A stretch of 64,000 bases of DNA, from contig CAWDVR010000005.1 in the NCBI GenBank assembly GCA_963805975.1, positions 288,001 through 352,000 on the forward strand, read 5' to 3'. Positions 43,656 to 62,314 of this stretch are shown here, piece by piece. The translations under genes were made by a program, and so were the position numbers. The first letter of the stretch is position 1. Every line of letters begins with the position of its first letter. The stretch is from an uncultured Acidobacteriota bacterium (GTDB taxonomy: Bacteria; Acidobacteriota; Thermoanaerobaculia; Multivoradales; SZUA-115). A model generated the notes under the pieces. It had not been told where the DNA came from, searched no databases, and saw nothing but the letters and a program-made list of their open reading frames with translations.

Positions 43656-44290
43656 GCCCGCGCCTGAAGATGCTCCTGGGCGTGCTCGGGGTGGCGGCGG
43701 TGATCTTCCTGTGGAGCCAGCTCAGGCCGCAGGACGAGGTGCCCGCGGCCGCCGTCTCGCCGCTCGACAGGAAGATCGGCGGCACGACGCCTGGCCGCAC
43801 GGGGTCGAGGACCGGCGGGCGCTCCGGCGGGCGCCGGGATGCGCCGGCGGTCACCACCGTCTCCGAGCTGCGCCTGGCCGATCTCGAGCCGGCGACCGGC
43901 GGCTTCCACACCGGCCGCAACCCCTTCGCCTTCGTGGCGGCGCCTCCTCCGCCCCCTCCTCCTCCGCCCCCGCCGCCGACCAAAGAGCAGATCGCGGCGC
44001 GGCTGGCGGCCGAGGAGGCGGCGCAGCGGGCGGCGGCAGCGGCAGCGGTCGAGGCGACCAAGCCCAAGCCGCCGCGGATCACCTTCTCCTACCTCGGCAG
44101 CTTCGGCCCGCCGTCGCGGCGGATCGCCGTGCTGTCCCAGGGCGAGACGACCTACAACGCCATGGTCGGCGACGTGATCGAGGGCAAGTTCCGTCTGGTG
44201 GCGATCGGTTTCGAGTCGGTGGAAATTGGTTTCGTCGATTTTCCAAACCAGCCCCCGGCGCAGTTGCCGGTCGGCGAAAAGGGAAGCTGA
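43652..44290 (+). CDS. PilP/GspC-position protein with poly-Pro linker
   Basis: ATGA overlap; TM; GRNPFAF; PPPPPPPPPPP; YLG..IAVL..GDVIEGKFRLVAI. Confidence 0.7.
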   Translation: MSPRLKMLLGVLGVAAVIFLWSQLRPQDEVPAAAVSPLDRKIGGTTPGRTGSRTGGRSGGRRDAPAVTTVSELRLADLEPATGGFHTGRNPFAFVAAPPPPPPPPPPPPTKEQIAARLAAEEAAQRAAAAAAVEATKPKPPRITFSYLGSFGPPSRRIAVLSQGETTYNAMVGDVIEGKFRLVAIGFESVEIGFVDFPNQPPAQLPVGEKGS

Positions 44291-44292
44291 AG

Positions 44293-46809
44293 ATGCGTGA
44301 GAGAAAAGTTCTGCTAGGCGCGCTGCTGGCGCTCGTCGTCTTCAGCTCCTGTACCAGTTACCGCAACTACCGGCGGGCGCAGATGGCCGCCACGGCCGAG
44401 GACTGGGACCAGGCCGTCGTCTTCTACATGAAGGCGGTGGACGAGAACCCGGGGAACATCACCTACAAGGCGGCCCTGCTCAGGGCCAAGATGCGCGCCT
44501 CGCAAGAGCACTTCAACAAGGCGCGCCGCTACCAGCAGACGGAGGTGCTCGAACGCGCCCTGATCGAGTACCAGCAGGCGGTGGCCCTCGACCCTTCCAA
44601 CCAGTCGGCCGCCGTCGAGCTCGAGAAGGTGCGCCTCGCCCTCGTCGCCCAGCGCGAGAACCGCAAGTCGGACGACACCCTCGACGATCTCAAGCGCCGG
44701 GTGAGCCTGGAGAGCCAGCCGCCGCAGCTCAACCCGCGCTCCAACGAGCCCATCGATCTCGAGTTCCCGGAGCCGGTGTCGATCATGGACATCTACCGGG
44801 CGCTGGGGCGCGCCTTCGGCATCAACATCCTCTTCGACCCCAACTTGAAGGACCAGGAGCTGGGCGTCGAGCTCAAGCAGGTGCGGGCCCAGGACGCGCT
44901 CGAGTTCCTGATGCGCGCCGCCAACCACTTCTACAAAGTGCTCGACCCGCAGACCATCATCATCATCGCCGACACGCCGCAGAACCGCCGCAACTACGAG
45001 GACCTGGTGATCAAGACCTTCTTCCTGTCGAACGCGGAGGTGAAGGACGTGGTCACCATGCTGCGCAGCCTGATCGACGCCAAGAAGATCGCCACCAATG
45101 ACCGGTTGAACGCCATCATCCTGCGCGACACCGCCGACAAGGTGAAGGTGGCCGAGCGCATCATCACCGCCAACGACAAGGCGCGGGCCGAGGTGGTGGT
45201 CGACGTCGAGCTGCTGCAGATCAACACCACCAAGCTCAAGGACCTGGGAGTCACCTGGCCGAGCCAGATCTCGACCGGCATCGACCTCGGTGAGGACGTG
45301 CCGATCCGGCTCTCCGACCTCGAGTTCCTGAACCAGAGCAACTGGACGATCACCATCCCCAACTTCGTCTACGACTTCGTCAAGACCTCGACCGACGCCC
45401 AGCTCCTCGCCAAGCCGCAACTGCGCATCAGCGAGGGCGAGAAGGCGAGCCTGGTGATCGGCGACCGGGTGCCGATCCCGGTGACCAGCTTCAACACCGC
45501 CAACACGGTGGGCAGCAACATCGTGCCCATCACCTCGTTCCAGTACCAGGACGTCGGCATCAAGATCAACCTCGAGCCGCGCGTGCACCACAACAAGGAA
45601 GTCACGCTCAAGGTGATGGTCGAGGTGTCGAACCTCTCCGGCCAGGTGCAGAGCGGCGGCAGCTCGCAGCCGATCATCGGCACCCGCACCATCGAGTCGA
45701 CCATCCGCTTGAAGGACGGCGAGACCAACTTCCTGGCCGGCCTGATGCGCACCGACGAGACGGTCTCCGACAGCGGCGTGCCGGGCCTCTCGGACATCCC
45801 GGTCCTGGGCCGCCTGTTCTCGAAGAACCGCAACCAGAACCAGCGCACCGACGTGATCCTGACCTTGACGCCGCACATCATCCGTTCGGCCGACATCACC
45901 GAGGAGGACCTGCTGCCGATCTGGGTGGGCACCGAGGCCAACGTCACCTTCCGCGGCGGCAGCCCGCGGGTCGAGTCCGAGGTCGAGGGGCCGTTCGAGG
46001 AGGAGGTCGAGCCCACCACCGGCGAGGACATCCGCGAGCTCATCCAGAAGCGCATCCAGCAGCTCCCGGGCGGCTCGCCCGAGGAGCAGCAGAAGCCGGC
46101 GCCGCCGTCGGGCATCGACCTGGTGCCGGGAGGCCCGGGCAACGTGCTCCAGCCGCAGCCGCCGGCGGAGGAGCCGGTCTTCGAGCCGCCGCCGTTCGGC
46201 GTGCCCTCCGAGGAGGAGATCCCGCCGCCGGACGGACCGGGGTTCACGGGCGGCGGCGGCGGTGGCGGCTTCGCGGGCGGCACCTCGTCCTCGACCTTGC
46301 AGCTCGTCCATCCCTACCCGCAGGTGGTCCACGCCGCGATCGGCAACGCCGCCGTGGCCCTGCACTTCGCGCCCCGGCAGATGACCGTGGTGGCCGGCGA
46401 CACCTTCGAGCTGACGCTCGCCGCCGAGGCCCACCGGCCGGTCTCGCACCTGCCCGTCACCCTGGCCTACGACCACCGGCGGCTGGAGGTGGTGGCGGTG
46501 CGCGCCGGCGATTTCCTGGGCGACTCCTCCAAGGGCCAGGTGCTGGCGGACTTCTCCCGCCCCGGCGAGGTGGTGATCGGCGCCAGCCGGCTGGGTGCCG
46601 TGCCCTCGGTTTCCGGCCGCGGCTCGGTGGCGGTGATCACCTTCCGCGCGCTCTCCCACGGCACCACCGAGGTGCGCTTCCGGCAGGCGCAGGCGCTCAG
46701 CGTCGATCTGGCGCCCCTGGCCCCGGTCTCCGCCGAGCCGGCGCGGATCGAGATCCGGGTCGACCGGCCGGTGAACGAGCGCCCACCGAGACCGCCGCAG
46801 GAGACCTAG
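44293..46809 (+). CDS. gspD: Secretin (GspD-like) lipoprotein with N-terminal TPR and C-terminal cohesin-like domain
   Basis: Lipobox FSSC; TPR; KTFFLSNA; PQLRISEGEKA..GDRVP; YQDVGIK; RLKDGET; GVPGLSDIPVLGRLF; C-terminal GDTFEL..LAYD..L..G.FL..SGRGSVAVITFRA. Confidence 0.9.
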   Translation: MRERKVLLGALLALVVFSSCTSYRNYRRAQMAATAEDWDQAVVFYMKAVDENPGNITYKAALLRAKMRASQEHFNKARRYQQTEVLERALIEYQQAVALDPSNQSAAVELEKVRLALVAQRENRKSDDTLDDLKRRVSLESQPPQLNPRSNEPIDLEFPEPVSIMDIYRALGRAFGINILFDPNLKDQELGVELKQVRAQDALEFLMRAANHFYKVLDPQTIIIIADTPQNRRNYEDLVIKTFFLSNAEVKDVVTMLRSLIDAKKIATNDRLNAIILRDTADKVKVAERIITANDKARAEVVVDVELLQINTTKLKDLGVTWPSQISTGIDLGEDVPIRLSDLEFLNQSNWTITIPNFVYDFVKTSTDAQLLAKPQLRISEGEKASLVIGDRVPIPVTSFNTANTVGSNIVPITSFQYQDVGIKINLEPRVHHNKEVTLKVMVEVSNLSGQVQSGGSSQPIIGTRTIESTIRLKDGETNFLAGLMRTDETVSDSGVPGLSDIPVLGRLFSKNRNQNQRTDVILTLTPHIIRSADITEEDLLPIWVGTEANVTFRGGSPRVESEVEGPFEEEVEPTTGEDIRELIQKRIQQLPGGSPEEQQKPAPPSGIDLVPGGPGNVLQPQPPAEEPVFEPPPFGVPSEEEIPPPDGPGFTGGGGGGGFAGGTSSSTLQLVHPYPQVVHAAIGNAAVALHFAPRQMTVVAGDTFELTLAAEAHRPVSHLPVTLAYDHRRLEVVAVRAGDFLGDSSKGQVLADFSRPGEVVIGASRLGAVPSVSGRGSVAVITFRALSHGTTEVRFRQAQALSVDLAPLAPVSAEPARIEIRVDRPVNERPPRPPQET

Positions 46810-47324
46810 TGTCGTCCGGGAACCCAAGACCGGCGTTCATGCCAAGCCTCGTTGTGAGAGAACGGAGCGCCGGCAGCTCCGCCGGGTTCACGCTGGCGGA
46901 GCTGGTGATGGTGGCCATCATCCTCATCGTGCTGGCCGCCGCCACCTTCCCGGTGGTCAAGTTCGCCAGCCGGCGGATGAAGGAGTCCGAGCTGCGGCAC
47001 GACCTCAGGAGCATGCGCCTCGCCGTCGACGAGTACAAGCGCTACAGCGACGCCGGCCTGATCCCCATCGACCTCGGCAGCGAGGGCTACCCCAAGGACC
47101 TGGAAACCCTGGTCGAGGGCGTCGACCTGGTCGGGCAGGTGGACAAGAAAGCCCGCTTCCTGCGCCGCATCCCCATCGATCCGATGACCAGCGAGGCGGA
47201 GTGGGGGCTGCGCAGCTTCCAGGACGAGCCCGACTCGGACTCCTGGGGGGGCGAAAACGTGTTCGACGTCTACTCGCTGTCCGAAGGCGTGGGCCTGAAC
47301 GGCGTCCCCTACCGAGAGTGGTGA
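46809..47324 (+). CDS. Pseudopilin (GspG-like)
   Basis: Prepilin motif G/FTLAELVMV; YPKDLETLVEG; FLRRIPIDPMT. Start may be ATG 46839. Confidence 0.9.
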   Translation: MSSGNPRPAFMPSLVVRERSAGSSAGFTLAELVMVAIILIVLAAATFPVVKFASRRMKESELRHDLRSMRLAVDEYKRYSDAGLIPIDLGSEGYPKDLETLVEGVDLVGQVDKKARFLRRIPIDPMTSEAEWGLRSFQDEPDSDSWGGENVFDVYSLSEGVGLNGVPYREW

Positions 47325-47329
47325 GCGGC

Positions 47330-47800
47330 ATGGACAGAATGATCGGGATCAGACGACGCCTCTTCGGGGGCCGCGGCAAAGACCGCAGCCAGGGCGGCTT
47401 CACGCTGCTCGAGATGATCATCGTGGTGGGCATCATCGGCATCCTGGCCGGCATCATCATGCCCAACCTGATCGACCGGCCGCGGCGGGCCAAGGAAGCC
47501 GTGCTGCGCCAGAACCTCTTCACCCTGCGCGACGTGCTCGACCAGTACTACGGCGACAAGGGGCACTACCCGGAGGAGCTGACCGACGTGGTGGACGCCG
47601 GCTATCTGCGGGCGGTGCCGGTCGACCCGATCACCGGCAGCAACGAGACTTGGGTGGTGGTCTACGAGGAGGAGGATCCGGACAATCCCGGTCCCGAGAG
47701 CGACGAGGGCGAGGACGGCGAAGGCGGCCCGGGGATCATCGACATTCACTCCGGCTCCGAGGAGCTCTCCCTCGACGGCGAGCCCTACGGCGAATGGTGA
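47330..47800 (+). CDS. Pseudopilin (GspG-like)
   Basis: GG/FTLLEMIIVV; DQYYGDKGHYP..YLRAVPVDPITG. Start 47321, 47330 or 47339. Confidence 0.9.
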   Translation: MDRMIGIRRRLFGGRGKDRSQGGFTLLEMIIVVGIIGILAGIIMPNLIDRPRRAKEAVLRQNLFTLRDVLDQYYGDKGHYPEELTDVVDAGYLRAVPVDPITGSNETWVVVYEEEDPDNPGPESDEGEDGEGGPGIIDIHSGSEELSLDGEPYGEW

Positions 47801-48657
47801 GCCCGCGTCTCTCTCGCGCGCCGCAAAGCCAGGCCGGCTACACCCTGGCGGCGCTGGCCATCGCCGTGACCGTGATGTCCATCCTCACGGCGGTGGCGCT
47901 GCCGGTGTGGAGCAAGGCCATCCAGCGCGAGAAGGAAGAAGAGCTGATCGCCCGCGGGCTCCAGTACGCGGAGGCGATCCGCGTCTTCAGGAGCAAGTTC
48001 GGGCGCGCGCCGGTGCGGCTGCAGGAGCTGATCGAGGTCGAGCCGCGCACCATCCGCCGGCTGTGGCCGGACCCCATGATGGAGGATGGCGAGTGGGGCC
48101 TGCTGCTCGAAAACGCACAGCAACTGCAGCCCGTTCCAGGCATTCCACCCGGCCAGGCTCCAGGCTCCCGACGGGAGGACAACGGCCGGGGCTCGGACGA
48201 AGGTGAAGAAGGCAGGCAAGACGAGGAGGGCAAGCTCCCCGACGGCACGCCGCCGATCCCGGTGTCCAACCTCTTCGGCGAGGACAGCGAGGCCGGCACC
48301 CAGGTCACCATCGGGCCGATCATGGGCGTCGTCAGCCGTAGCAAAGAGGAGTCGCTGAAGGTCTTCCTCGACACCAACCGTTACGACCAGTGGAAGTTCA
48401 ACTACCAGATGCTGGCCGCCACCACGGGCTTCAATCCCCCGGGCGGCGGCGCCAATCTCGCCGTGGGCACCCGCCCGCAGTGGATCGGCCGGCCCTGGCG
48501 GCCGGGCATCGTGCCCCCCGGCTTCGGCCAGGTGCCGGGCCAGCAGCCGGTGATGCAGCCCGGGGGCGAGGGCTTCGGCATCCCCGGCGGCCAACCGCTC
48601 CCCGGCGGCAAGCCCGGCGCAGCCGTCAAGCCTGGCTCCGGCGGCGAAGAACAATAG
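47794..48657 (+). CDS. Minor pseudopilin lacking Glu5 (GspK/PilX-like)
   Basis: AG/YTLAAL; REKEEELIARG; IRRLWPDPM; IMGVVSRS; Pro/Gly-rich tail. Confidence 0.8.
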   Translation: MVSPRLSRAPQSQAGYTLAALAIAVTVMSILTAVALPVWSKAIQREKEEELIARGLQYAEAIRVFRSKFGRAPVRLQELIEVEPRTIRRLWPDPMMEDGEWGLLLENAQQLQPVPGIPPGQAPGSRREDNGRGSDEGEEGRQDEEGKLPDGTPPIPVSNLFGEDSEAGTQVTIGPIMGVVSRSKEESLKVFLDTNRYDQWKFNYQMLAATTGFNPPGGGANLAVGTRPQWIGRPWRPGIVPPGFGQVPGQQPVMQPGGEGFGIPGGQPLPGGKPGAAVKPGSGGEEQ

Positions 48658-48662
48658 CGGCC

Positions 48663-49124
48663 GTGAGCCCGCCGTCTCCGCTCCGCGTCCGCCTGCGGCG
48701 CCTGCCCCACGCCACGGACCTGCCTCTTCCCTGCCCCGCCTCGCCCGGCAGCGCCGGCTGCGATCTGCGGGCGGCGATCGCCGCCGAGATCACCCTCGCA
48801 CCCGGCGCTCGGGCGCTCGTTCCCACCGGCCTGGTGCTCGAGATCCCGCCCGGCTTCGAGGGCCAGGTACGGCCGAGAAGCGGCCTCGCCATCCGCCACG
48901 GCCTCACCATGGTGAACGGGCCGGGCACCATCGACAGCGACTACCGCGGCGAGGTCGCCGTGCCGCTCATCAACCTCGGCCAGGAGCCCATCACCCTGCG
49001 CCACGGCGACCGCATCGCCCAGCTCCTCGTGACCCCCGTGCTGGCGGTGGCGTTCGAGGAGGCGGAAGAGCTGTCCGAGAGCGAGCGGGGCGAGGGCGGG
49101 TTCGGGTCTACGGGGGTGGGGTAG
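48663..49124 (+). CDS. dut: dUTP diphosphatase
   Basis: AGCDL, VPTGL, RPRSGLA, GTIDSDYRGE, GDRIAQL, RGEGGFGSTG. Confidence 0.96.
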   Translation: MSPPSPLRVRLRRLPHATDLPLPCPASPGSAGCDLRAAIAAEITLAPGARALVPTGLVLEIPPGFEGQVRPRSGLAIRHGLTMVNGPGTIDSDYRGEVAVPLINLGQEPITLRHGDRIAQLLVTPVLAVAFEEAEELSESERGEGGFGSTGVG

Positions 49125-52952: not shown

Positions 52953-54149
52953 TCAACGCGTGGCGCGCACCTTCTCCGCCACCCTCCGGTACGCCTCCCG
53001 AAACGGAACGCCCTCTTCCACCACCAGCCGGTAGGCCTCCTCGGCGGCGAAGAGGGAGGGGTCGAGCTGGGTTCGTTCGGGGTGGAAGCGGAGGCCGGGG
53101 AGGGCGTGGGCTAGGACGTCGAGGGTGGCCGTCGCGAGGTCGATGCCGCGGAAGAGCGGCGCTTTCAGGAGCTGGAGGTCACGGTGGTAGCCGGAGGGCA
53201 GCTTGGCGGTGACGGCCAGGGCCTCGACCAGGCAGGCGAGGGCCGTGGCGCCCCGGCCGCGCACCAGCTCGAAGACGTCCGGGTTCCGCTTCTGCGGCAT
53301 GATCGAGGAGCCGGTGGTCATCTCCTCGGGCAGGGTCACGAAACCCAGCTCCTGCATCGAGAAGAGCACCAGGTCCGCGGCGAGCTTCCCCAGATCCTGC
53401 ATCAGGAGCGTGATCTCGAAGAGGAGCTGCGCCTCGGCCTTGCCGCGGGAGAGCTGCACGGCGGTCACCGGCTCGTGGACCTCGGCGAAACCGAGCCGCG
53501 TGCGCGTCGCCTCGCGGTCGATCGGCAGCAGCGGCACGCCGTAGCCGGCCGCCGAGCCGAGGGGGTTCTTGTCCGCCCGGCGCGCCGCCGCCTCGAGGCC
53601 GACGGCGTCGTCCTCCAGCTCCGCGGCGAAGCCGCGCGCCCAGAGCGCCACCGAGCTCGGCATGGCGCGCTGCTGGTGGGTGTAGCCGGGCAGCAGCACC
53701 TCGCCCTGGCCCACCGCAATCCCTGCGAGCGCCGCCGCCACGGCGCGCGTACCGGCCGCGAGCCGCGGGATCGCGGCCTTCAGATACAGCCGCAGGGCGG
53801 CGAGCACCTGATCGTTGCGCGAGCGGCCGAGGTGGATGCGCCCGCCCGCCTCGCCGATCCGCGCCGTGAGCCGGTTCTCGAGCGCTGTATGCACGTCCTC
53901 GTCCGCCAGCTCGATGGCCCACTCGCCGCGCGCGTGCTCTCGGGCCAGCGCTTCGAGCCCGCCGCGGATCGCGTCGAGGTCCGCGGCCGAGAGCAGGCCC
54001 CGCTCGGAGAGCATCTCGGCGTGGGCGATCGAAGCGAGGACGTCGTAGAGCAGGAGCCGCGCGTCGAGCAGGTGGTCCTCGCCCGCGGTGTAGCGCAGGA
54101 CTTTTTCGTCGAGGCCGAGCTCGCCTTCCCTCTGCCAGAGCCGCGCCAT
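52953..54149 (-). CDS. argH: Argininosuccinate lyase (short, 398 aa)
   Basis: EDVH, HLGRSRNDQV, PGYTHQQRA, TGSSIMPQKRNPD, LPSGYHRDLQ, GVPFREAY. Confidence 0.95.
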   Translation of the reverse strand: MARLWQREGELGLDEKVLRYTAGEDHLLDARLLLYDVLASIAHAEMLSERGLLSAADLDAIRGGLEALAREHARGEWAIELADEDVHTALENRLTARIGEAGGRIHLGRSRNDQVLAALRLYLKAAIPRLAAGTRAVAAALAGIAVGQGEVLLPGYTHQQRAMPSSVALWARGFAAELEDDAVGLEAAARRADKNPLGSAAGYGVPLLPIDREATRTRLGFAEVHEPVTAVQLSRGKAEAQLLFEITLLMQDLGKLAADLVLFSMQELGFVTLPEEMTTGSSIMPQKRNPDVFELVRGRGATALACLVEALAVTAKLPSGYHRDLQLLKAPLFRGIDLATATLDVLAHALPGLRFHPERTQLDPSLFAAEEAYRLVVEEGVPFREAYRRVAEKVRATR

Positions 54150-55225
54150 CAGAGGGGCCCCTGCGAGAGCCGGAGCACCAGCTCGATGTAGAAGCGCGCG
54201 CCGTCGAGGACCTCCTCCTCGTACACGTGCTCGTCGATGGTGTGCGAGCGCTCGCTCTGTCCCGGCCCTACCTTGATCGCCGGGATGCCGCCGAGGAGCG
54301 CCCAGTCGGAGAGCGTGGCCGAGCCGTAGGTCCGGGCTGCCGGCCGCGCGGCCCTGGCGGCTTGGAAGACGGCCGAGCCCTCCGGCGTCTCCCGCGGCGC
54401 GAAGCGCTCCGAGGCGATCCGTACCTCGCCCTGGACCAGTGCCTGGAGGCGGGCGATGACCTCGTGGGGCGGCAGAGCTGGCGTGGTGCGCACGTCGAGG
54501 ATCGCCGAGGCATGCGCGGGCACCGCGTTCCGGGCCTCGCCGGCCCGCACTACCGTGGGCTCGAGGGTGGTGGCGCCGAGCCAGGGGTGGGCGGGCTCGA
54601 GGTCGAGGGCCTCGAGCGCCACCAGGTCGCGCGCCAGGCGACGGGCGGCGTTGACCGCCCCGAGCTTCGCCGCATGCGCCGCGTGGCAAGCCTCGCCCTC
54701 CGCCACCAGCTCCAGGACGAGGAGGCCCTTCTGCGCCACGGCCAGGTCGAGCCCGGTGGGCTCGCCGATCACCGCCGTGCGTGGCTCGCGGCCGGTCGCC
54801 CGCAGATGCATGAGCACGCTCTCGGTGCCCACGCTCCGCGTCTCCTCGGCCTCGACCAGCGCCAGCGCCAGAGTGAAGGGCGGCGGCTCGTCGAGAAAGG
54901 CGAGAAACGCCGCGGCCATCGCCGCCACCGAAGCCTTGGCGTCGTTCGCCCCGAGGCCGATCACCTTCCCGCCTTCGCGGCGTGGCGTGAAAGGGTCGGC
55001 CGTCCAGCCGGGCGCCGGCGGCACGGTGTCGAGGTGGGTGTCGAAGAGCACCAGCGGCCCTCGGCCCACCGTCGCGAGCAGGCTCGCGCCCAGCCGCTCG
55101 ACCCTCGCACCTCGCTCCGTGAGCCAGCTCTCCATCCAGTCGGCGATCGGCCCTTCGCCGCCGGAGACCGAGGGGATGCCGACCAGCGAGCGGTGCAGCG
55201 CCAGGATCTCCTCGTCCGGGATCAT
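54149..55225 (-). CDS. argE: M20 family N-acyl-ornithine/citrulline deacylase
   Basis: HLDTV, GLGANDAK, EE, VIGEPT, HAA, SHTIDE; position in the arg operon. Confidence 0.88.
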   Translation of the reverse strand: MIPDEEILALHRSLVGIPSVSGGEGPIADWMESWLTERGARVERLGASLLATVGRGPLVLFDTHLDTVPPAPGWTADPFTPRREGGKVIGLGANDAKASVAAMAAAFLAFLDEPPPFTLALALVEAEETRSVGTESVLMHLRATGREPRTAVIGEPTGLDLAVAQKGLLVLELVAEGEACHAAHAAKLGAVNAARRLARDLVALEALDLEPAHPWLGATTLEPTVVRAGEARNAVPAHASAILDVRTTPALPPHEVIARLQALVQGEVRIASERFAPRETPEGSAVFQAARAARPAARTYGSATLSDWALLGGIPAIKVGPGQSERSHTIDEHVYEEEVLDGARFYIELVLRLSQGPL

Positions 55226-56130
55226 CCTTCTGCCCCCGCCGAGCCGTGCGTGGACGGCGCGGCCATGTTCTCCACCACCATCGTGCCGCAGCCCTCGTTG
55301 GTGAACACCTCGACCAGCAGGCTGTCCGCACCGGCGCAGGAGACCACGTGCGCGCGCTGGACCCCGCCGCGGATGGCGGCCGCGAGCGCCTCGGCCTTGG
55401 GCAGCATGCCGCCCGACAGCGCGCCGCGGCGCTGCAGATCGGCGAGGCCGGCGAGGTCGGTGTAGGAGACGAGAGAGCCGGGGTCGTCCAGGCGCTCGAG
55501 GATGCCGGGAGCACCGGTCAGGAGGATCAGCTTCTCGGCCCCGAGGGCCACGGCGAGCGCCGCCGCCACGGTGTCGGCGTTGACGTTCAGGAGCGTGCCG
55601 TCGTCGGCCGCGGAGAGCGGGGAGACCACCGGCAGCAGGCCGGCGTCGAGCAGGGTGGTGAGCACGCGCGGCTCGACCCGGGCGATGTCGCCCACCAGGC
55701 CGAAGTCCACCACCTCGGAGCCCACCGCGACCGGCGGCCGGCGGCGGGCGCGCACCAGGCCGGCGTCGACGCCCGAGAGGCCCACGGCCGGCAGGTCGAG
55801 GCCGCGGCAGAGAGCGAGGAGCCGGGTGTTGACCGAGCCGTTCAGCACCATCGCCGCCACGTCCAGGGCCTTCTGGTCCGTCACCCGACGGCCGGCCACG
55901 ATGCGGGGCTCGGAGCCCAGGGCCCACGCCAGCTCGGTGGACTGCGGGCCGCCGCCGTGCACCAGCACGACGCGGATGCCCACGCGCCAGAGGACCTCCA
56001 CCTGCTCCAGGAGCCTCTGGGCGCGCCCTTCCTCGACGAACGCCTCGCCGCCGGCCTTGAGCACGAAGGTCTTGCCCTGGAACATGCGGAGGTAGGGCAC
56101 GGCGTGCCGCAGCCCGGCGATCTCGGTCAT
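55222..56130 (-). CDS. argB: N-acyl(acetyl)glutamate kinase
   Basis: PYLRMFQGKTFVLKAGG, VHGGGPQ, GRRVTD, NVNADT, GGMLPK; no C-terminal GNAT domain. Confidence 0.95.
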   Translation of the reverse strand: MTEIAGLRHAVPYLRMFQGKTFVLKAGGEAFVEEGRAQRLLEQVEVLWRVGIRVVLVHGGGPQSTELAWALGSEPRIVAGRRVTDQKALDVAAMVLNGSVNTRLLALCRGLDLPAVGLSGVDAGLVRARRRPPVAVGSEVVDFGLVGDIARVEPRVLTTLLDAGLLPVVSPLSAADDGTLLNVNADTVAAALAVALGAEKLILLTGAPGILERLDDPGSLVSYTDLAGLADLQRRGALSGGMLPKAEALAAAIRGGVQRAHVVSCAGADSLLVEVFTNEGCGTMVVENMAAPSTHGSAGAEG

Positions 56131-57137
56131 GGTCGAACCTCCCCCAGCAGGCGATGGAGCACGGCCATCTGCACCCAGAGCCGGTTGTGGGCCTGTCGGA
56201 CGACGGCGCTCCGCGGGCCGTCGAGCACCTCGTCGGCCACCACCACGTTGCGCCGCACGGGCAGGCAGTGCAGGAAGCGGCACTCGGGCGCGGCGCCGGC
56301 GAACCACGGCTCCGCCACGCACCAGCCGGCGAGGCCGGCCCGGAGCTCGGCCTCGCGCGCCGCGTCGCCGTAGCACTCGGCCGAGGCCCAGGACTTGGCG
56401 TAGACGACGTGCGCCCCGGCGAGCGCTTCCACGCGGGAGGAGGTCTCGGCGAGCGAGCCGCCGGAGGCCGCCGCGGCGCGGCGCGCCTTCTCCATCACCG
56501 GCGCCGGCAGGGAGTGGGACTCCGGCCGCAGCACCGTCACATCCATGCCCCGCGCCGCCGCCATGTGCACCACGGCGGCGGGCACGGCGAGCGGCAGCGG
56601 CTTGGGGTGGTGGGCCCAGGTGAGGACGAAGCGGCCGCCGCGCGCCGGGACGCCCAGATCGTCCAGCGTCTTCCAGTCGGCGAGCGCCTGGCAGGGATGG
56701 TTGGCGGCGGACTCGAGGTTGACGAGCGGCACGGGGCAGAGGTCCGCGATGGTGCCGAAGGTGCGCTCGGCGAGGTCGACCTCCAAGTCCTCGAGCCCGG
56801 CGAACGAGCGCACGCCGAGCACGTCGGCATAGCCGGCGAGCACCGGGATCGCCTCGCGCACGTGCTCGGCCGCGGCGCCGTCCATCTTCACTCCCGGGCG
56901 CGTCTCGAGCTTCCAGCTTCCCTGGCCGGGCGCGATGACGAACGACGAGCCGCCCAACCGTGCCATGGCGGACTGCATCGACGCCAGCGTGCGGAGCGAC
57001 GGGTCGAAGAACAGGAGCCCCAGCACCTTGCCGGCGAGCGCTGCGGGCTCCGGCTGCTTCTCCAATCGCGCCGCGAGCGCCAGCAGGCCTGCGATCTCTT
57101 CTCGGCCGAGGTCGGCCAGGTCGAGGAAGCTCTTCAT
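56127..57137 (-). CDS. argF: N-acylornithine carbamoyltransferase (ArgF' clade; residues point to N-succinylornithine specificity)
   Basis: SLRT, W.LE..G..MDGAAAEH, HPCQ, WAHHPKPLP, KSW, HCLPVRRNV. Confidence 0.9.
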   Translation of the reverse strand: MKSFLDLADLGREEIAGLLALAARLEKQPEPAALAGKVLGLLFFDPSLRTLASMQSAMARLGGSSFVIAPGQGSWKLETRPGVKMDGAAAEHVREAIPVLAGYADVLGVRSFAGLEDLEVDLAERTFGTIADLCPVPLVNLESAANHPCQALADWKTLDDLGVPARGGRFVLTWAHHPKPLPLAVPAAVVHMAAARGMDVTVLRPESHSLPAPVMEKARRAAAASGGSLAETSSRVEALAGAHVVYAKSWASAECYGDAAREAELRAGLAGWCVAEPWFAGAAPECRFLHCLPVRRNVVVADEVLDGPRSAVVRQAHNRLWVQMAVLHRLLGEVRP

Positions 57138-57147
57138 GCCAGGCTCC

Positions 57148-58332
<1,185 letters not shown>

Positions 58333-58351
58333 GGCGGCTCCTCGCGGGCTG

Positions 58352-59440
58352 CTACACCCAACCGAGGCCGGGCTGGGTGAGGCCGGTCGACTCGGGCAGG
58401 CCGTAGAGACGGTTCATCCACTGCACGGCGCCACCCGCCGCGCCCTTCACCAGGTTGTCGAGGGCCGAGAACGCCACCAGCGTGCCGTTCGCCACCGCCA
58501 GGCCGATGCGGCAGCGGTTGGTGCCCACCACCTCGGTGAGGCGCGGCGGCTCGGCCGAGACCGAGACGAACGGCGAGCCGGCGTAGAAGCCGGCCACCGC
58601 CGCCACGGCCTCCTCGGTGGTGAGGTGCCGGGCGGTCTGCGCCGTGAGCGTGGCGTAGATGCCGCGCGCGAACGGGCCGGACTGCGGCACGAACAGGATC
58701 TCGGCCGGCACCGTGGTCGCGGCCCGGATCAGGGCGCGCATCTCGGGCTGGTGGCGGTGGGCGAGCGGCTTGTAGGCGAAGAGGTTGGCGTGGCGCTCCG
58801 GGTGGTGGGTCGACGGACCCGGCGTGCGGCCGGAGCCGGTCGAGCCGGTGGTGGCGACCACCGTGATCCGCGGCTCGACCAGGCCGAGCGCCACGAGCGG
58901 CACGGCGGCGAGCACCACCGCGGTGGTGAAGCAGCCGGGGTGGGCGGCGTGGCGCACGTTGGCCTCTCCCAGGTGCTCGGGCAGCGCGCAGGTGAACTCG
59001 GCCAGGCGGTGGGGCGCGCCGTGCGCCTGGCCATAGACCTGCTCGAACTCCGCGGCCGAGGCGTAGCGGAAGTCGGCGGAGAGATCGACCACCGCGGCCT
59101 CGCTGCCCGCGGCCTCGGCGGCGCGGAGCAGGCGATCGACCAGCGGCGCCGAGGTGCCGTGCGGCGTGGCGGAGAACACGGCCACCCGCGGCCTCGCGGC
59201 CACCAGCTCTTCGAGCTCGGCGAGGGCGTGGAACCTGGCCTGCGGCCAAGCCGCGGCGAGGTGCGGGAAGGCCGCGGCCACGGCCTGGCCGGCCTGGCTC
59301 TCGGACACTGCCGCGACCTCGCCCAGCAGCGGATGCCCGAGGACCGGGTGCGCGGCGAGGAGACGCAGCAGCTCCCCGGCCACGTAGCCGGAGCCGCCCA
59401 GCACGATCGTCTGGACGCCGTCTGCCGCGGGCGCGGTCAC
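58352..59440 (-). CDS. argC: N-acyl-gamma-glutamyl-phosphate reductase
   Basis: GTGA overlap; GGSGYVAGEL, DLSADFR, PGCFTT, TGSTGSG, HRHQPE, DNLVKGAAG. Confidence 0.95.
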   Translation of the reverse strand: MTAPAADGVQTIVLGGSGYVAGELLRLLAAHPVLGHPLLGEVAAVSESQAGQAVAAAFPHLAAAWPQARFHALAELEELVAARPRVAVFSATPHGTSAPLVDRLLRAAEAAGSEAAVVDLSADFRYASAAEFEQVYGQAHGAPHRLAEFTCALPEHLGEANVRHAAHPGCFTTAVVLAAVPLVALGLVEPRITVVATTGSTGSGRTPGPSTHHPERHANLFAYKPLAHRHQPEMRALIRAATTVPAEILFVPQSGPFARGIYATLTAQTARHLTTEEAVAAVAGFYAGSPFVSVSAEPPRLTEVVGTNRCRIGLAVANGTLVAFSALDNLVKGAAGGAVQWMNRLYGLPESTGLTQPGLGWV

Positions 59441-60573
59441 GAAGCCAGCTCCGTGGCAGCCTTGGGCGCGACCGGGCCTTCGGCCGGGGGCGCGGCCGGC
59501 GCGGCCCGGCGCGAGGGGAAGAGGCGCGCCAGCACCCGCTCCGCCAGCTCCTCGGCGTGCGTACGTGCGTTGATCGCCGGCACGCCGGCCGTCTCCTCGA
59601 TGATCCGCGTGCCCGCCAGGTTGTCGCTCGCCGGCCCGGTCACGGCCAGGGGGCTGAGGCCGTAGCGGTCGGCGAGGAGGCGCACGCCGCCCCAGGCGGC
59701 CACCGGGTCGTTGGCCGCGAGCAGCACGGCGGAGAAGGCGGCGCGGACCTCGGGATCGGCGAGGATCGCGTCCACGCCGTAGGCGCCGAGGAGCCCGTCC
59801 CCCAGCTCCACCACGATCACGTCCGGCCCGCCGGCCGCGAGGTCGGTCAAGAGCGTGCGGGTGATGGCCGCGGCGTTGGCGGCGGTGGTCGAGACCACGC
59901 CGAGGTCGGTGAAGAGCGCCGTCTTCCGGGCGCCGGCGTCCTCCATTGCCAGCACGTCGCGGTAGAGCGAGACGCCCGTGGCCTTGAAGGCGTCCACCGT
60001 CAGGCCGGCGTGGGCGAGCCGCTGCACCAGCGCGCAGGCGGCGGCCGTCTTCCCCGAGTTCATGCACGAGCCGACGATCGCCACCACCGGCACGCTGCGC
60101 CCGTCGGGCCGAGCCAGGTTGAGGCGCGGCGCCGCGGGCAGCGGGCGCTCGCCCACGCGGGCCGGTACCCCCACCCGCTCGGCGAGGAACGGGAAGGAGA
60201 GCACCGCGCCGAGCACCTCGCACTCGAAGGGCTGCCCGAGGTCCGGGTTGATCGAGTCGCAGTGGCCCAGCACGCCGCCGGTGTTGAGCACCTGGACGCG
60301 GTCACCCGGTGCCAGGCTCGTCGGCAGGTGCCCGGAGTAGCCGAAGAGCGCGTTGCGGTGCCCCAGAGCACCGGCCAGCACGTCGCCGCGCTTCACCAGC
60401 GCCAGCCGGCCGCTCGGCAGCTCGAGCTGGTTGTAGGTGCTCTTGTCGGAGAGCACGCGGACCGCCACCACCACACCCTCCTCGCAGGGGATGCGCGCGT
60501 CCACCAGCACCTCCCGCTTCAAACGGCAGGCGCGGGTCACGGAGGCGATCTTGTCGAGCAGCACCGGCTTCAC
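59437..60573 (-). CDS. DUF1611-like P-loop protein embedded in the arg operon
   Basis: GTG start overlaps the argG stop and its stop overlaps the argC start; 378 aa; YNQLELPSGR, GALGHR, GSCMNSGKT, KATG, MEDAGA, FTDLG..ST, VVELGDGLLG. Confidence 0.85.
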   Translation of the reverse strand: MKPVLLDKIASVTRACRLKREVLVDARIPCEEGVVVAVRVLSDKSTYNQLELPSGRLALVKRGDVLAGALGHRNALFGYSGHLPTSLAPGDRVQVLNTGGVLGHCDSINPDLGQPFECEVLGAVLSFPFLAERVGVPARVGERPLPAAPRLNLARPDGRSVPVVAIVGSCMNSGKTAAACALVQRLAHAGLTVDAFKATGVSLYRDVLAMEDAGARKTALFTDLGVVSTTAANAAAITRTLLTDLAAGGPDVIVVELGDGLLGAYGVDAILADPEVRAAFSAVLLAANDPVAAWGGVRLLADRYGLSPLAVTGPASDNLAGTRIIEETAGVPAINARTHAEELAERVLARLFPSRRAAPAAPPAEGPVAPKAATELAS

Positions 60574-61799
60574 GACGGACCCTCCGCACCGGCGCGGCCC
60601 GCCTTGGACCCAGCACGAGAGTAGAGCTGGCCGGGGAGGCCCAGCAGGCGCGAGAAGCCGCGCGCGTCCTCGGCCGTCCACTCGCCGGCCGCTTCGCCGT
60701 AGGTGCCGCGCGAGGCGGCCATCAGCGAGTGCGGCGAGGAGACGCCCTCGACGAACAGGCTCCCCGGCCGCAACAGCAGGAAGACCTCGCCCGTCACCCG
60801 CGCCTGGGAGGAGGTGAGCAGCGCCTCGATGTCGCGGCAGGCGGGCTCCAAGTGCTGGCCCTCGTGCACCAGGTCTCCATAGATGGCGGCGACGCCGTCC
60901 TTCACCCGCTGCTGGCGGCCGGTCAAGGTGAGCTTCTCGAGCTCGCGGTGGGCGGTGATCAGCACCTCGGCGGCCGGCGCCTCGAAGGCGACGCGGCCCT
61001 TGGAGCCCAGGATGGTGTCCCCGAGATGGATGCCGCGGCCGATGCCGTAGGGCCCCGCCTCGGCCTCCACGCGCTCGATGAGCGCCACCGGCGAGAGCGC
61101 CTCGCCGTCCCAGGCCACGGGGACCCCCTGCTCGAAGAAGAGGATGTGGCGGGACGGCGGCAGGGGGCTCTCGAAAGCGCCGCGCGACAGCACCCAGGCC
61201 TCCTCCGGGATGGAGGCCGCGCTCCCCAGCGTCTCCCGGCCGCCGATCGTCACTCCCCAGAGGCCACGGTTGATCGAGTACGCCGAGCCCCGCTGCGGCA
61301 CGGCGAGGCCGCGCGCCTCGAGGTAGGCCACCTGCTCGGCACGCGGCTTGGGATCGTCGCGCACCGGCGCCAGGATGGTGAGCTCCGGCGCCAGCGTCGA
61401 GAGTGCCACCTCGAAGCGCACCTGGTCGTTGCCGGCCGCGGTGCAGCCGTGGGCCACGGTGGTCGAGGAAAGCTCGCGCGCGGCGCGCGCCACCTCCTGC
61501 GCCTGGATCACCCGCTCCGCGCCCACCGACAGCGGGTAGAGCTGGCCGCGCCGCACGTTGCCGGCGACGAGGTGACGGAGCACGCGGTCGAAGAACATCT
61601 GCCGCGCCTCGACGCGCAGGTGGCGGACGGCCCCCAGCGCCGCGGATTGCGCCGCGAGTCGCTCGGCGGCCTCGCCGTCGAGCCCGCCGGTGTCCACCGT
61701 CACCGTGACCACCGGCCGCCGGTGGGTCTCGGCCAGCCAGGGCACGCAGTAGGAAGTGTCCAGCCCGCCCGAGAAGGCGAGGACGATGGGCTCGGTCAT
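60570..61799 (-). CDS. argG: Argininosuccinate synthase
   Basis: LAFSGGLDTS, YPLS, HGCTAAGNDQVRFE, KGRVAFEAP. Confidence 0.96.
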   Translation of the reverse strand: MTEPIVLAFSGGLDTSYCVPWLAETHRRPVVTVTVDTGGLDGEAAERLAAQSAALGAVRHLRVEARQMFFDRVLRHLVAGNVRRGQLYPLSVGAERVIQAQEVARAARELSSTTVAHGCTAAGNDQVRFEVALSTLAPELTILAPVRDDPKPRAEQVAYLEARGLAVPQRGSAYSINRGLWGVTIGGRETLGSAASIPEEAWVLSRGAFESPLPPSRHILFFEQGVPVAWDGEALSPVALIERVEAEAGPYGIGRGIHLGDTILGSKGRVAFEAPAAEVLITAHRELEKLTLTGRQQRVKDGVAAIYGDLVHEGQHLEPACRDIEALLTSSQARVTGEVFLLLRPGSLFVEGVSSPHSLMAASRGTYGEAAGEWTAEDARGFSRLLGLPGQLYSRAGSKAGRAGAEGPS

Positions 61800-62260
61800 G
61801 GTGAGGGCTCCGGGGCCTGGGTGAGGAGCAGGCCGAAATGGTCCAGGAACCGCGCCTGGGCGCGGGCGTTGGCGGTGGCGACGAAGATCGTGTCGTCGCC
61901 GGCGATGGTGCCCGCCACCTCCGGCCAGCCGGCGCGGTCGATGGCGAGCGCCACGGTCTGCGCGGTGCCCACCGCCGTTTGCACCACCGCCAGGTGGGGC
62001 CCGGCCGGCCGCACGCGGCGCGCGAACCGCGCGGCGGAGGCGAGATCCTCGTCCGAGCCGCGCTCGCCGCCCGGGGGCAGGTAGCGGCCTCCCACCTTGC
62101 CCACCCCCAGGTAGCGGAGGTCCCGGCTGACGCTCGACTGCGTGGCCTCGATGCCGCGCTCGCCGAGCATCGCAACCAGCTCCTCCTGGCTCGTCACCCG
62201 GCGGGTGCGGAGCAGGTAGATGAGGGCTTCGCGGCGGGCTTGATGAAGGTCGGGTTCCAT
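61796..62260 (-). CDS. argR: Arginine repressor
   Basis: SQEELV..L..GIEATQSSVSRDL, GTIAGDDTIFV. Confidence 0.96.
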   Translation of the reverse strand: MEPDLHQARREALIYLLRTRRVTSQEELVAMLGERGIEATQSSVSRDLRYLGVGKVGGRYLPPGGERGSDEDLASAARFARRVRPAGPHLAVVQTAVGTAQTVALAIDRAGWPEVAGTIAGDDTIFVATANARAQARFLDHFGLLLTQAPEPSP

Positions 62261-62267
62261 GGCGCCT

Positions 62268-62314
62268 CGCGTAAGTATGCGAACAATGGTGCATGAGATT
62301 GCATTTTAAGTCAA
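62268..62314 (-). promoter_or_regulatory. arg operon sigma70 promoter overlapped by two ARG-box-like palindromes
   Basis: TTGACT-17 nt-CACCAT on the minus strand; boxes TGCAATCTCATGCA (62290-62303) and CGCATACTTACGCG (62268-62281). Confidence 0.75.

What the first reader, a model, noticed from the sequence alone, without database searches (positions are those of the whole stretch)
56127..57137. Transcarbamylase has the N-succinylornithine (SOTCase) signature
Seen: MDGAAAEH puts Ala90 (codon 56868-56870) just before EH; the protein also has HPKPLP and RRNVV. Known: this position is Glu92 in Xanthomonas campestris AOTCase and Pro90 in Bacteroides fragilis SOTCase, and E92A/S/V/P switch AOTCase to SOTCase. 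From memory, AOTCase has HPKPLN and RRNVK at the other two sites. Inference: the operon runs on succinylated intermediates, a route characterised in Bacteroidetes, here in a probable acidobacterium. ArgB, C, D and E would then act on succinyl substrates, and automatic annotation as 'acetyl' would be wrong.
Basis: partly seen in the sequence, partly recalled or inferred. Interest (0 to 1): 0.7.

Follow-up and report, generated by a model that had tools for sequence, protein, structure and literature searches.

The report
Succinyl-type arginine operon in an acidobacterium
This bacterium's arginine-synthesis genes carry the sequence marks of enzymes that likely use succinyl- rather than the usual acetyl-protected intermediates, in the carbamoyltransferase and also in the kinase; the route was already predicted for this kind of operon, but databases still label the genes 'acetyl'.

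Summary
Observation confirmed. ArgF' (56127-57137) has Ala90, Pro182 and Val299 where Xanthomonas AOTCase has Glu92, Asn185 and Lys302, which is the published SOTCase signature. It lies in argR-argG-X-argC-argD-argF'-argB-argE-argH, with no argA or argJ found. X belongs to the family that the GapMind 2026 preprint already predicts to be an N-succinylglutamate synthase, using the same position-92 argument. The inference is therefore in print, and this scan noted it before on other DNA. It is not rare either: 100 of 401 sampled genomes of the phylum have ArgF', and 78 of 79 read lack Glu. Added here: (1) ArgB has Arg at the position of E. coli Leu65, which lines the acetyl pocket. This holds in 224 of 224 kinases from succinyl-type contexts, Bacteroidota included, against 2 of 21 controls and 0 of 4 AOTCase operons, though they form one clade. 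(2) X is a P-loop protein with an invariant Walker A, so it may be an ATP-dependent ligase. (3) Some relatives pair X and the Arg-type ArgB with an ordinary OTCase. Nothing has been assayed. New member of a known kind.

The parts
56127..57137 (-). argF': knotted-type N-acylornithine transcarbamylase with the SOTCase signature (336 aa)
56868..56870 (-). Ala90 codon (= Glu92 of X. campestris AOTCase, Pro90 of B. fragilis SOTCase)
56592..56594 (-). Pro182 codon (= Asn185 of AOTCase)
56241..56243 (-). Val299 codon (= Lys302 of AOTCase)
55222..56130 (-). argB: N-acylglutamate kinase (302 aa), predicted N-succinylglutamate kinase
   Evidence: TIGR00761 over cut-off
55888..55890 (-). ArgB Arg81 codon (= E. 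coli Leu65 of the acetyl-methyl pocket)
55738..55740 (-). ArgB Arg131 codon: second Arg conserved in succinyl-context kinases; it lies in a gappy loop and is less specific
59437..60573 (-). gene X (378 aa): DUF1611/BioD-like P-loop protein, predicted to supply N-succinylglutamate in place of ArgA
60046..60072 (-). Walker A-like GSCMNSGKT of X (residues 168-176); G168, M171, G174, K175 and T176 are invariant in 144 of 144 rows
61796..62260 (-). argR arginine repressor (154 aa)
   Evidence: both Pfam Arg_repressor domains over cut-off
60570..61799 (-). argG argininosuccinate synthase (409 aa)
   Evidence: best matches are ArgG models, each below its NCBIfam cut-off
58352..59440 (-). argC N-acylglutamyl-phosphate reductase (362 aa)
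   Evidence: TIGR01850 over cut-off
57148..58332 (-). argD N-acylornithine aminotransferase (394 aa)
   Evidence: best matches are ArgD models, below cut-off
54149..55225 (-). argE-like M20 deacylase (358 aa), predicted N-succinylcitrulline desuccinylase
   Evidence: Peptidase_M20 and M20_dimer over cut-off; function inferred from position
52953..54149 (-). argH argininosuccinate lyase (398 aa)
   Evidence: TIGR00838 over cut-off
62290..62303 (-). ARG-box-like palindrome upstream of argR; a weaker second copy lies at 62268-62281
   Evidence: at most 2 mismatches to a recalled consensus upstream of argR in 45 of 74 related loci, against about 3.4 expected from shuffles

Best explanation
The gene is a knotted-type transcarbamylase with the full SOTCase residue signature, and it likely carbamoylates N-succinylornithine within an arginine operon predicted to run on succinylated intermediates from start to finish. 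Predicted route: X makes N-succinylglutamate; ArgB phosphorylates it; ArgC and ArgD give N-succinylornithine; ArgF' gives N-succinylcitrulline; the M20 enzyme removes succinate; ArgG and ArgH give arginine; ArgR represses the operon. Shown here: gene content and order, residue identities, co-occurrence, and the fold class of X. Inferred: every substrate. In ArgF', loss of the Glu92 carboxylate would admit the succinyl carboxylate, held by His177, Lys179 and Arg295. In ArgB, Arg81 replacing the hydrophobic Leu65 would do the same. How X activates succinate is open: succinyl-CoA transfer as for DgcN (about 55%), or ATP-dependent ligation through its intact P-loop (about 35%).
For: Three of three diagnostic residues match. 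E92A/P/S/V switches specificity, as cited in GapMind 2026. All catalytic residues in the review's Table 1 are present: S47, R49, T50, W75, R110, E142, H147, Q150, K248, C291, L292, R319. The only other transcarbamylase found in the 96%-complete genome has ATCase motifs. No ArgJ (controls ring in 10 of 14), no classical ArgA over cut-off, no AstA. X and ArgF' co-occur in 92 genomes; 8 have ArgF' only, 19 X only and 282 neither, of 401. The one Glu/Asn/Lys ArgF' among the 79 read lacks X and sits with a Xanthomonas-like 438-aa kinase. ArgB Arg81 aligns with E. coli Leu65, and that pocket (L65, R66, V122, N160) holds the acetyl methyl and excludes larger acyl groups (PMC2851564). Arg is there in 224 of 224 kinases from succinyl-type contexts, including 67 of 67 in Bacteroidota-type operons that use a GNAT instead of X, against 2 of 21 controls and 0 of 4 AOTCase operons. 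B. fragilis ArgB is reported to be an N-succinylglutamate kinase.
Against: No assay of any enzyme in this clade was found. The protein is closer to Xanthomonas AOTCase (228 bits) than to B. fragilis SOTCase (178 bits). The B. fragilis succinyl anchor Arg178 is Lys179 here, as in AOTCase. The third site is not strict: 4 of 78 non-Glu ArgF' keep Lys. The Arg81 kinases form one clade (SH-aLRT 81), so 224 cases are one origin and Arg81 could be only a clade marker. Two control kinases without X also have it, and Arg131 is in 4 of 21 controls. B. fragilis ArgB itself was not aligned. The only characterised structural relative of X with a related job, DgcN, is an acetyltransferase, and its match (Z 15.4) ties with BioD and CTP synthase. 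The searches for a Bacteroidota-type GNAT ArgA and the NAT domain had no ringing control, so another ArgA elsewhere in the genome is not excluded.
Confidence: 0.8

Rival explanations
1. The operon uses acetylated intermediates, as annotated. X is a DgcN-like L-glutamate acetyltransferase, and ArgF' is an AOTCase that tolerates Ala at position 92.
For: Passes the NCBIfam AOTCase cut-off; closer to Xanthomonas AOTCase than to B. fragilis; Lys179 as in AOTCase; DgcN is an acetyltransferase.
Against: None of the three AOTCase residues is present. The same model is passed by 78 non-Glu proteins, so it does not separate the two activities. ArgB has a charged Arg in the acetyl pocket, unlike 4 of 4 AOTCase-linked kinases.
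Confidence: 0.07
2. The pathway uses another acidic acyl group (for example glutaryl or malonyl) or accepts several, so 'succinyl' is too narrow.
For: The first enzyme is unrelated to the Bacteroidota GNAT. The residues seen only indicate room for, and attraction to, a carboxylate. Position 299 varies (V, A, I, E, K) across relatives.
Against: The signature residues and the order argC-D-F'-B-E-H are shared with Bacteroidota operons, whose characterised member is succinyl-specific. No other acyl route is described in the papers read.
Confidence: 0.11

Closest known systems
[quoted passage not shown]
   Same: Non-Glu/Pro/hydrophobic signature, Trp in the 80s loop, proline-rich loop, His and Arg succinyl anchors.
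   Different: Only 178 bits similarity; Ala for Pro90; Lys for Arg178; a separate branch of the ArgF' tree; different phylum.
Xanthomonas campestris AOTCase (PDB 3KZC) and its E92A form (3L02)
   Same: Best PDB hits, aligned over the full length (226-228 bits); same catalytic residues; the 3L02 sequence has Ala at the same position.
   Different: Wild type has Glu92/Asn185/Lys302. AOTCase operons have a Leu-type kinase and no X.
Steroidobacter-type arginine cluster with the predicted alternative N-succinylglutamate synthase ACG33_RS14135 (GapMind 2026, bioRxiv 10.1101/2024.10.14.618325, Appendix 2)
   Same: Same gene set and the same position-92 inference. X is 58% and ArgF' 66% identical to a locus labelled S. 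denitrificans, and these ArgF' form one strongly supported clade.
   Different: This operon keeps argE, which S. denitrificans lacks. Appendix 2, read whole, does not mention the ArgB pocket residue, the P-loop of X, or the OTCase-linked variant, and names no acidobacterium in its text (its figure could not be seen).
Bacteroidota succinyl pathway with GNAT ArgA2 (BT3761)
   Same: argC-argD-argF'-argB-argE-argH order and Arg-type ArgB.
   Different: There the first enzyme is a GNAT placed before argG. Here it is the P-loop protein X between argG and argC, and argR leads the operon.
DUF1611 proteins and DgcN D-glutamate N-acetyltransferase (PDB 2G0T, 2OBN, 7XRJ); BioD and CTP synthase
   Same: The model of X (pLDDT 92.5) matches at Z 16.9, 16.3 and 15.4 (rmsd 2.8-3.0, 180-189 aligned), with BioD at 15.6 and CTP synthase at 15.5.
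   Different: 14-18% identity; Pfam DUF1611 scores 14.5 bits against a cut-off of 25; the N-terminal 150 residues of X are barely matched.

Membership tests
SOTCase | Residues at AOTCase positions 92, 185, 302 are A/S/P/V/Q, P, V/I/E | tested here: met
   Ala90, Pro182, Val299
SOTCase | Knotted-group marks: proline-rich loop, extended 80s loop with Trp, extended 120s loop | tested here: met
   By sequence only: HPKPLP and W75 present, and both loops align without gaps to AOTCase. The knot itself was not modelled.
SOTCase | Succinyl anchors H176, R178, R278 | tested here: inconclusive
   H177 and R295 kept; Arg178 is Lys179, as in AOTCase; Lys in 64 and Arg in 15 of 79 phylum homologs
SOTCase | Lies in the arginine biosynthesis cluster | tested here: met
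SOTCase | Carbamoylates N-succinylornithine in preference to N-acetylornithine and ornithine | not testable with these tools
   needs an assay
AOTCase | Glu92, Asn185, Lys302 | tested here: not met
   0 of 3
AOTCase | NCBIfam NF003384 cut-off | tested here: met
   349 bits against 288; the model does not separate the two specificities
OTCase | DxxxSMG loop | tested here: not met
   YAKSW instead; OTCase models below cut-off
Bacteroidota-type succinyl pathway | GNAT ArgA2 as first enzyme in the operon | tested here: not met
   No GNAT in the operon; one GNAT query found nothing genome-wide, without a positive control
Bacteroidota-type succinyl pathway | ArgB acts on N-succinylglutamate | not testable with these tools
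   Shares Arg81 with 67 of 67 Bacteroidota-type kinases; activity untested
GapMind alternative ArgA family (gene X) | Homology to ACG33_RS14135 and position in arg operons | tested here: inconclusive
   58% identical to a locus labelled S. denitrificans, and beside argC in 79 of 80 loci; the named accession itself was not compared (exact look-up failed)
DUF1611 / DgcN | Pfam PF07755 cut-off and distinct best fold match | tested here: inconclusive
   Below cut-off; top Z tied within about 1.5 with BioD and CTP synthase

The most novel reading that the evidence does not exclude
X is an ATP-dependent succinate:glutamate ligase of the BioD/CTP-synthase fold, a CoA-independent first step of arginine synthesis. 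A single Leu-to-Arg change in ArgB marks all N-succinylglutamate kinases. The succinyl route is the main use of knotted ArgF' across many phyla, with acetyl-type AOTCase a small branch, and a third version of the route removes the succinyl group before an ordinary OTCase.
Probability: 0.22. Interest if true: 0.72.

Novelty: new member of a known kind. Interest (0 to 1): 0.36.

Why it matters
If right, the arginine genes of about a quarter of the sampled genomes of this phylum (100 of 401 have ArgF'; 78 of 79 read are non-Glu) and of several gammaproteobacterial groups are labelled with the wrong substrates in databases and metabolic models. The ArgB residue gives a second, one-position predictor of the succinyl route that also works in genomes with no ArgF', and it can be tested with one mutant. 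X is a candidate new enzyme class for the first step. The core inference, however, is already published as a prediction.

Tried and rejected
Papers not held: Shi 2007, Yu 2023 on DgcN and Xu 2007. Their content is taken second-hand from the papers cited. The Luque 2010 thesis on B. fragilis ArgB was not seen and may already describe the kinase residues. bioRxiv supplements were not consulted, and Figure S2 of GapMind 2026 could not be seen. Sequence search of X against the PDB gave nothing. The profile gave only weak P-loop hits to BioD and MobB, and Foldseek's listed rows did not include 7XRJ, though VIA-align did. Direction of evolution (succinyl ancestral, acetyl derived): AOTCase is one small clade, but it sits in an unresolved basal fork in both trees (121 rows quick; 42 of those rows with a mixture model), so no order of events is claimed. 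Arg131 looked as sharp as Arg81 in the 87-row alignment but is in 4 of 21 controls in the larger one. A catabolic AST role was rejected: no AstA, and the cluster is biosynthetic. No structure of ArgF' or ArgB was predicted and no complex job was run. ArgC, ArgD and ArgE pockets were not analysed.

Full report
OBSERVATION. The ORF at 56127-57137 (minus strand) encodes a 336-aa transcarbamylase. Its best PDB matches are X. campestris AOTCase and its mutants (225-228 bits), then B. fragilis SOTCase (178 bits), then OTCases (105 bits or less). B. fragilis has Pro, Pro and Ile at these sites. The review PMC4581275 (passages; sections 5 and 7 whole) gives Glu92/Asn185/Lys302 as the AOTCase residues and A/S/P/V/Q, P and V/I/E as the SOTCase ones. 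All catalytic residues of its Table 1 are kept. Of the three succinyl anchors, His and Arg are kept and Arg178 is Lys. NCBIfam nevertheless names the protein N-acetylornithine carbamoyltransferase.

CONTEXT. The gene lies in a nine-gene unit, argR-argG-X-argC-argD-argF'-argB-argE-argH (52953-62260), with most junctions overlapping or within 20 bases and an ARG-box-like palindrome upstream. A site with at most 2 mismatches to a recalled consensus lies upstream of argR in 45 of 74 related loci, against about 3.4 expected from shuffles. The genome is 96% complete. It gave no ArgJ, no classical ArgA over cut-off and no AstA, and its only other transcarbamylase has ATCase motifs. Searches for a Bacteroidota GNAT ArgA and for the NAT domain were empty but lacked a ringing control. 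The closest named homologs of X are from Thermoanaerobaculia or Acidobacteriota, and a secretin outside the operon matches mostly Acidobacteriota clusters. The phylum assignment is an inference from these.

DISTRIBUTION. The best 80 of 531 genome loci encoding X were kept. Of these, 79 have argC beside X and 66 reach argF'; all 66 have Ala or Ser at position 90 and Pro at 182. They include Acidobacteriota, many Gammaproteobacteria and a locus labelled Steroidobacter denitrificans. In a 401-genome sample of the window's phylum, 100 pass the ArgF' cut-off. I read 79 of these: 78 have a non-Glu residue with Pro, and 1 has Glu/Asn/Lys. Four of the 78 keep Lys at the third site. Counting X from hits at E 2e-45 or better plus one contig-edge fragment, and dropping 12 genomes with only weak hits, 92 genomes have both genes, 8 ArgF' only, 19 X only and 282 neither. 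These tallies include the window's genome and one genome flagged unpublished (G023); no claim depends on G023. In 400 genomes of the class of the Steroidobacter-labelled genome, 11 pass the cut-off. Of the 10 re-fetched (one of the 11 was already in hand), 3 are Glu-type without X and 7 non-Glu with X. Among 67 near-full-length representatives at 50% identity (of 150 listed), only about three carry the AOTCase Asn.

WHAT IS IN PRINT. The earlier finding e1-3885220 pointed to the GapMind 2026 preprint (passages; Appendix 2 whole; figure and supplements not seen). It predicts that ACG33_RS14135 of S. denitrificans is an alternative N-succinylglutamate synthase, notes remote likeness to DgcN (7XRJ), and reports A/P/S/V at position 92 in 90% of 70 neighbouring ArgF'. 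GapMind 2020 (passages), Liu 2021 (passages) and Ashniev 2022 (passages) describe the Bacteroidota route with a GNAT first enzyme and cite B. fragilis ArgB as an N-succinylglutamate kinase. UniRef names a Hyalangium homolog N-succinylornithine carbamoyltransferase. A search for 'succinylated intermediates' with arginine and Acidobacteri- gave 0 papers. Other notes of this scan report the same reading on other DNA.

NEW EVIDENCE FROM ArgB. ArgB reads GRRV where four solved NAGKs read GLRV, GHRV or GFRV. Arg81 aligns with E. coli Leu65. PMC2851564 (passages) states that L65, R66, V122 and N160 form the pocket for the acetyl methyl, and that it cannot bind larger N-acyl groups. The other three residues are conserved here. 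Arg at this site is found in 70 of 70 kinases from the X scan (10 loci had none to read), 75 of 75 from the phylum sample (2 had none), 7 of 7 gammaproteobacterial ones, and 5 of 5 from genomes with X but no ArgF'. It is also in 67 of 67 from Bacteroidota-type metagenome operons (13 of 80 had none of sufficient length), which have a GNAT and no X and whose ArgB is only about 30% identical. Controls: 2 of 21 ordinary kinases and 0 of 4 AOTCase-linked ones. Five LysZ-like control loci were left out. The sets may share genomes. In the tree the succinyl-context kinases form one clade (SH-aLRT 81), and the two Arg-bearing controls lie outside it, so this is one origin and not many independent cases. 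A second Arg (131) is equally conserved in these sets but is in 4 of 21 controls. Searches for N-succinylglutamate kinase (of 20 listed, only GapMind used the phrase) and for the NAGK pocket showed no mention of this residue as a succinyl marker; the Luque thesis and Shi 2007 could not be read.

GENE X. The model is confident (pLDDT 92.5). It matches DUF1611 proteins (Z 16.9 and 16.3), BioD (15.6), CTP synthase (15.5) and DgcN (15.4), all at rmsd 2.8-3.3 over 177-197 residues, mainly through the C-terminal P-loop domain. The Walker A residues G168, G174, K175 and T176, a Lys (197) that aligns with the conserved Lys of BioD, and E256-x-G-D-G are invariant in 144 of 144 rows. BioD and CTP synthase use ATP to activate an acceptor for C-N bond formation (established knowledge, recalled). 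An ATP-dependent ligase is therefore a real alternative to CoA transfer. Finding e1-8545090 made the same suggestion. A shared fold does not show function.

A THIRD VARIANT. Four genomes with X but no ArgF' have only X-argC-argD-argB with the Arg-type kinase, and a fifth has argR in front. In G084, G108, G032, G236 and G060 the ornithine-type transcarbamylase found has an ordinary DxxxSMG loop. ArgJ was found in 0 of 5 and ArgG in 5 of 5 genomes tested (G084, G108, G032, G048, G403). The inference is succinylated intermediates up to ornithine, then an ordinary OTCase; the deacylase was not identified.

TREES OF ArgF'. The window protein groups with Thermoanaerobaculia and gammaproteobacterial sequences (100/95), apart from Bacteroidota. 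AOTCases are one small clade in an unresolved basal fork, so no direction of change is claimed.

VERDICT. It is a new member of a known, already predicted kind and common in this phylum. The additions of value are the ArgB pocket residue, the P-loop alternative for X and the OTCase-linked variant, all untested. Interest 0.36.

Noticed in passing
L204-L208 (G108, G084, G048, G032, G060) and L050, L051, L058, L060, L072: Short clusters (argR)-X-argC-argD-argB with Arg-type ArgB and no argF'. The genomes tested have an ordinary DxxxSMG OTCase and argG elsewhere and no argJ, which suggests a succinyl route that deacylates before an ordinary OTCase.
   Followed up: partly
window 56985-57002 (ArgF' residues 46-51): The carbamoyl-phosphate motif reads PSLRTL; the Arg that follows SxRT in AOTCase, SOTCase and most representatives is Leu here and in several close representatives. 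ENR near the C-terminus reads HNR.
   Followed up: no
L217 (G116:C82): The only Glu/Asn/Lys ArgF' among 79 phylum genomes read; it sits in a Xanthomonas-like order argF'-argG-argE-argB (438 aa)-argD-argC at 43% GC, possibly a transfer or a binning artefact.
   Followed up: partly
L030-L083 (gammaproteobacterial loci): The same operon lacks argE between argB and argH; only 21 of 80 X loci contain argE. The deacylase there is unidentified, as GapMind 2026 also notes.
   Followed up: no
L138, L149, L150, L153: ArgF' with a mixed signature Ala/Pro/Lys (succinyl-type at two sites, acetyl-type at the third), beside X: natural test cases for the role of Lys302.
   Followed up: no
L182 (G006) and L188 (G058): ArgB with Arg at the Leu65 position in genomes where neither X nor ArgF' was found; they branch outside the succinyl-context clade.
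   Followed up: partly
window 52953-54149: ArgH is 398 aa and matches only positions 9-392 of the 455-position TIGR00838 model, so it lacks the usual C-terminal part.
   Followed up: no
window 43700-49124 (+): TPR-secretin, two pseudopilin-like genes, a further type II secretion-like ORF and a dUTPase-like ORF (the last three named from the translation only); the secretin matches Acidobacteriota clusters.
   Followed up: partly
G002, G037, G038, G089, G137, G146, G147, G231, G276, G325, G389, G397: Weak paralogs of X (E 1e-19 to 1e-29) in genomes without the operon-type X; their context was not read.
   Followed up: no
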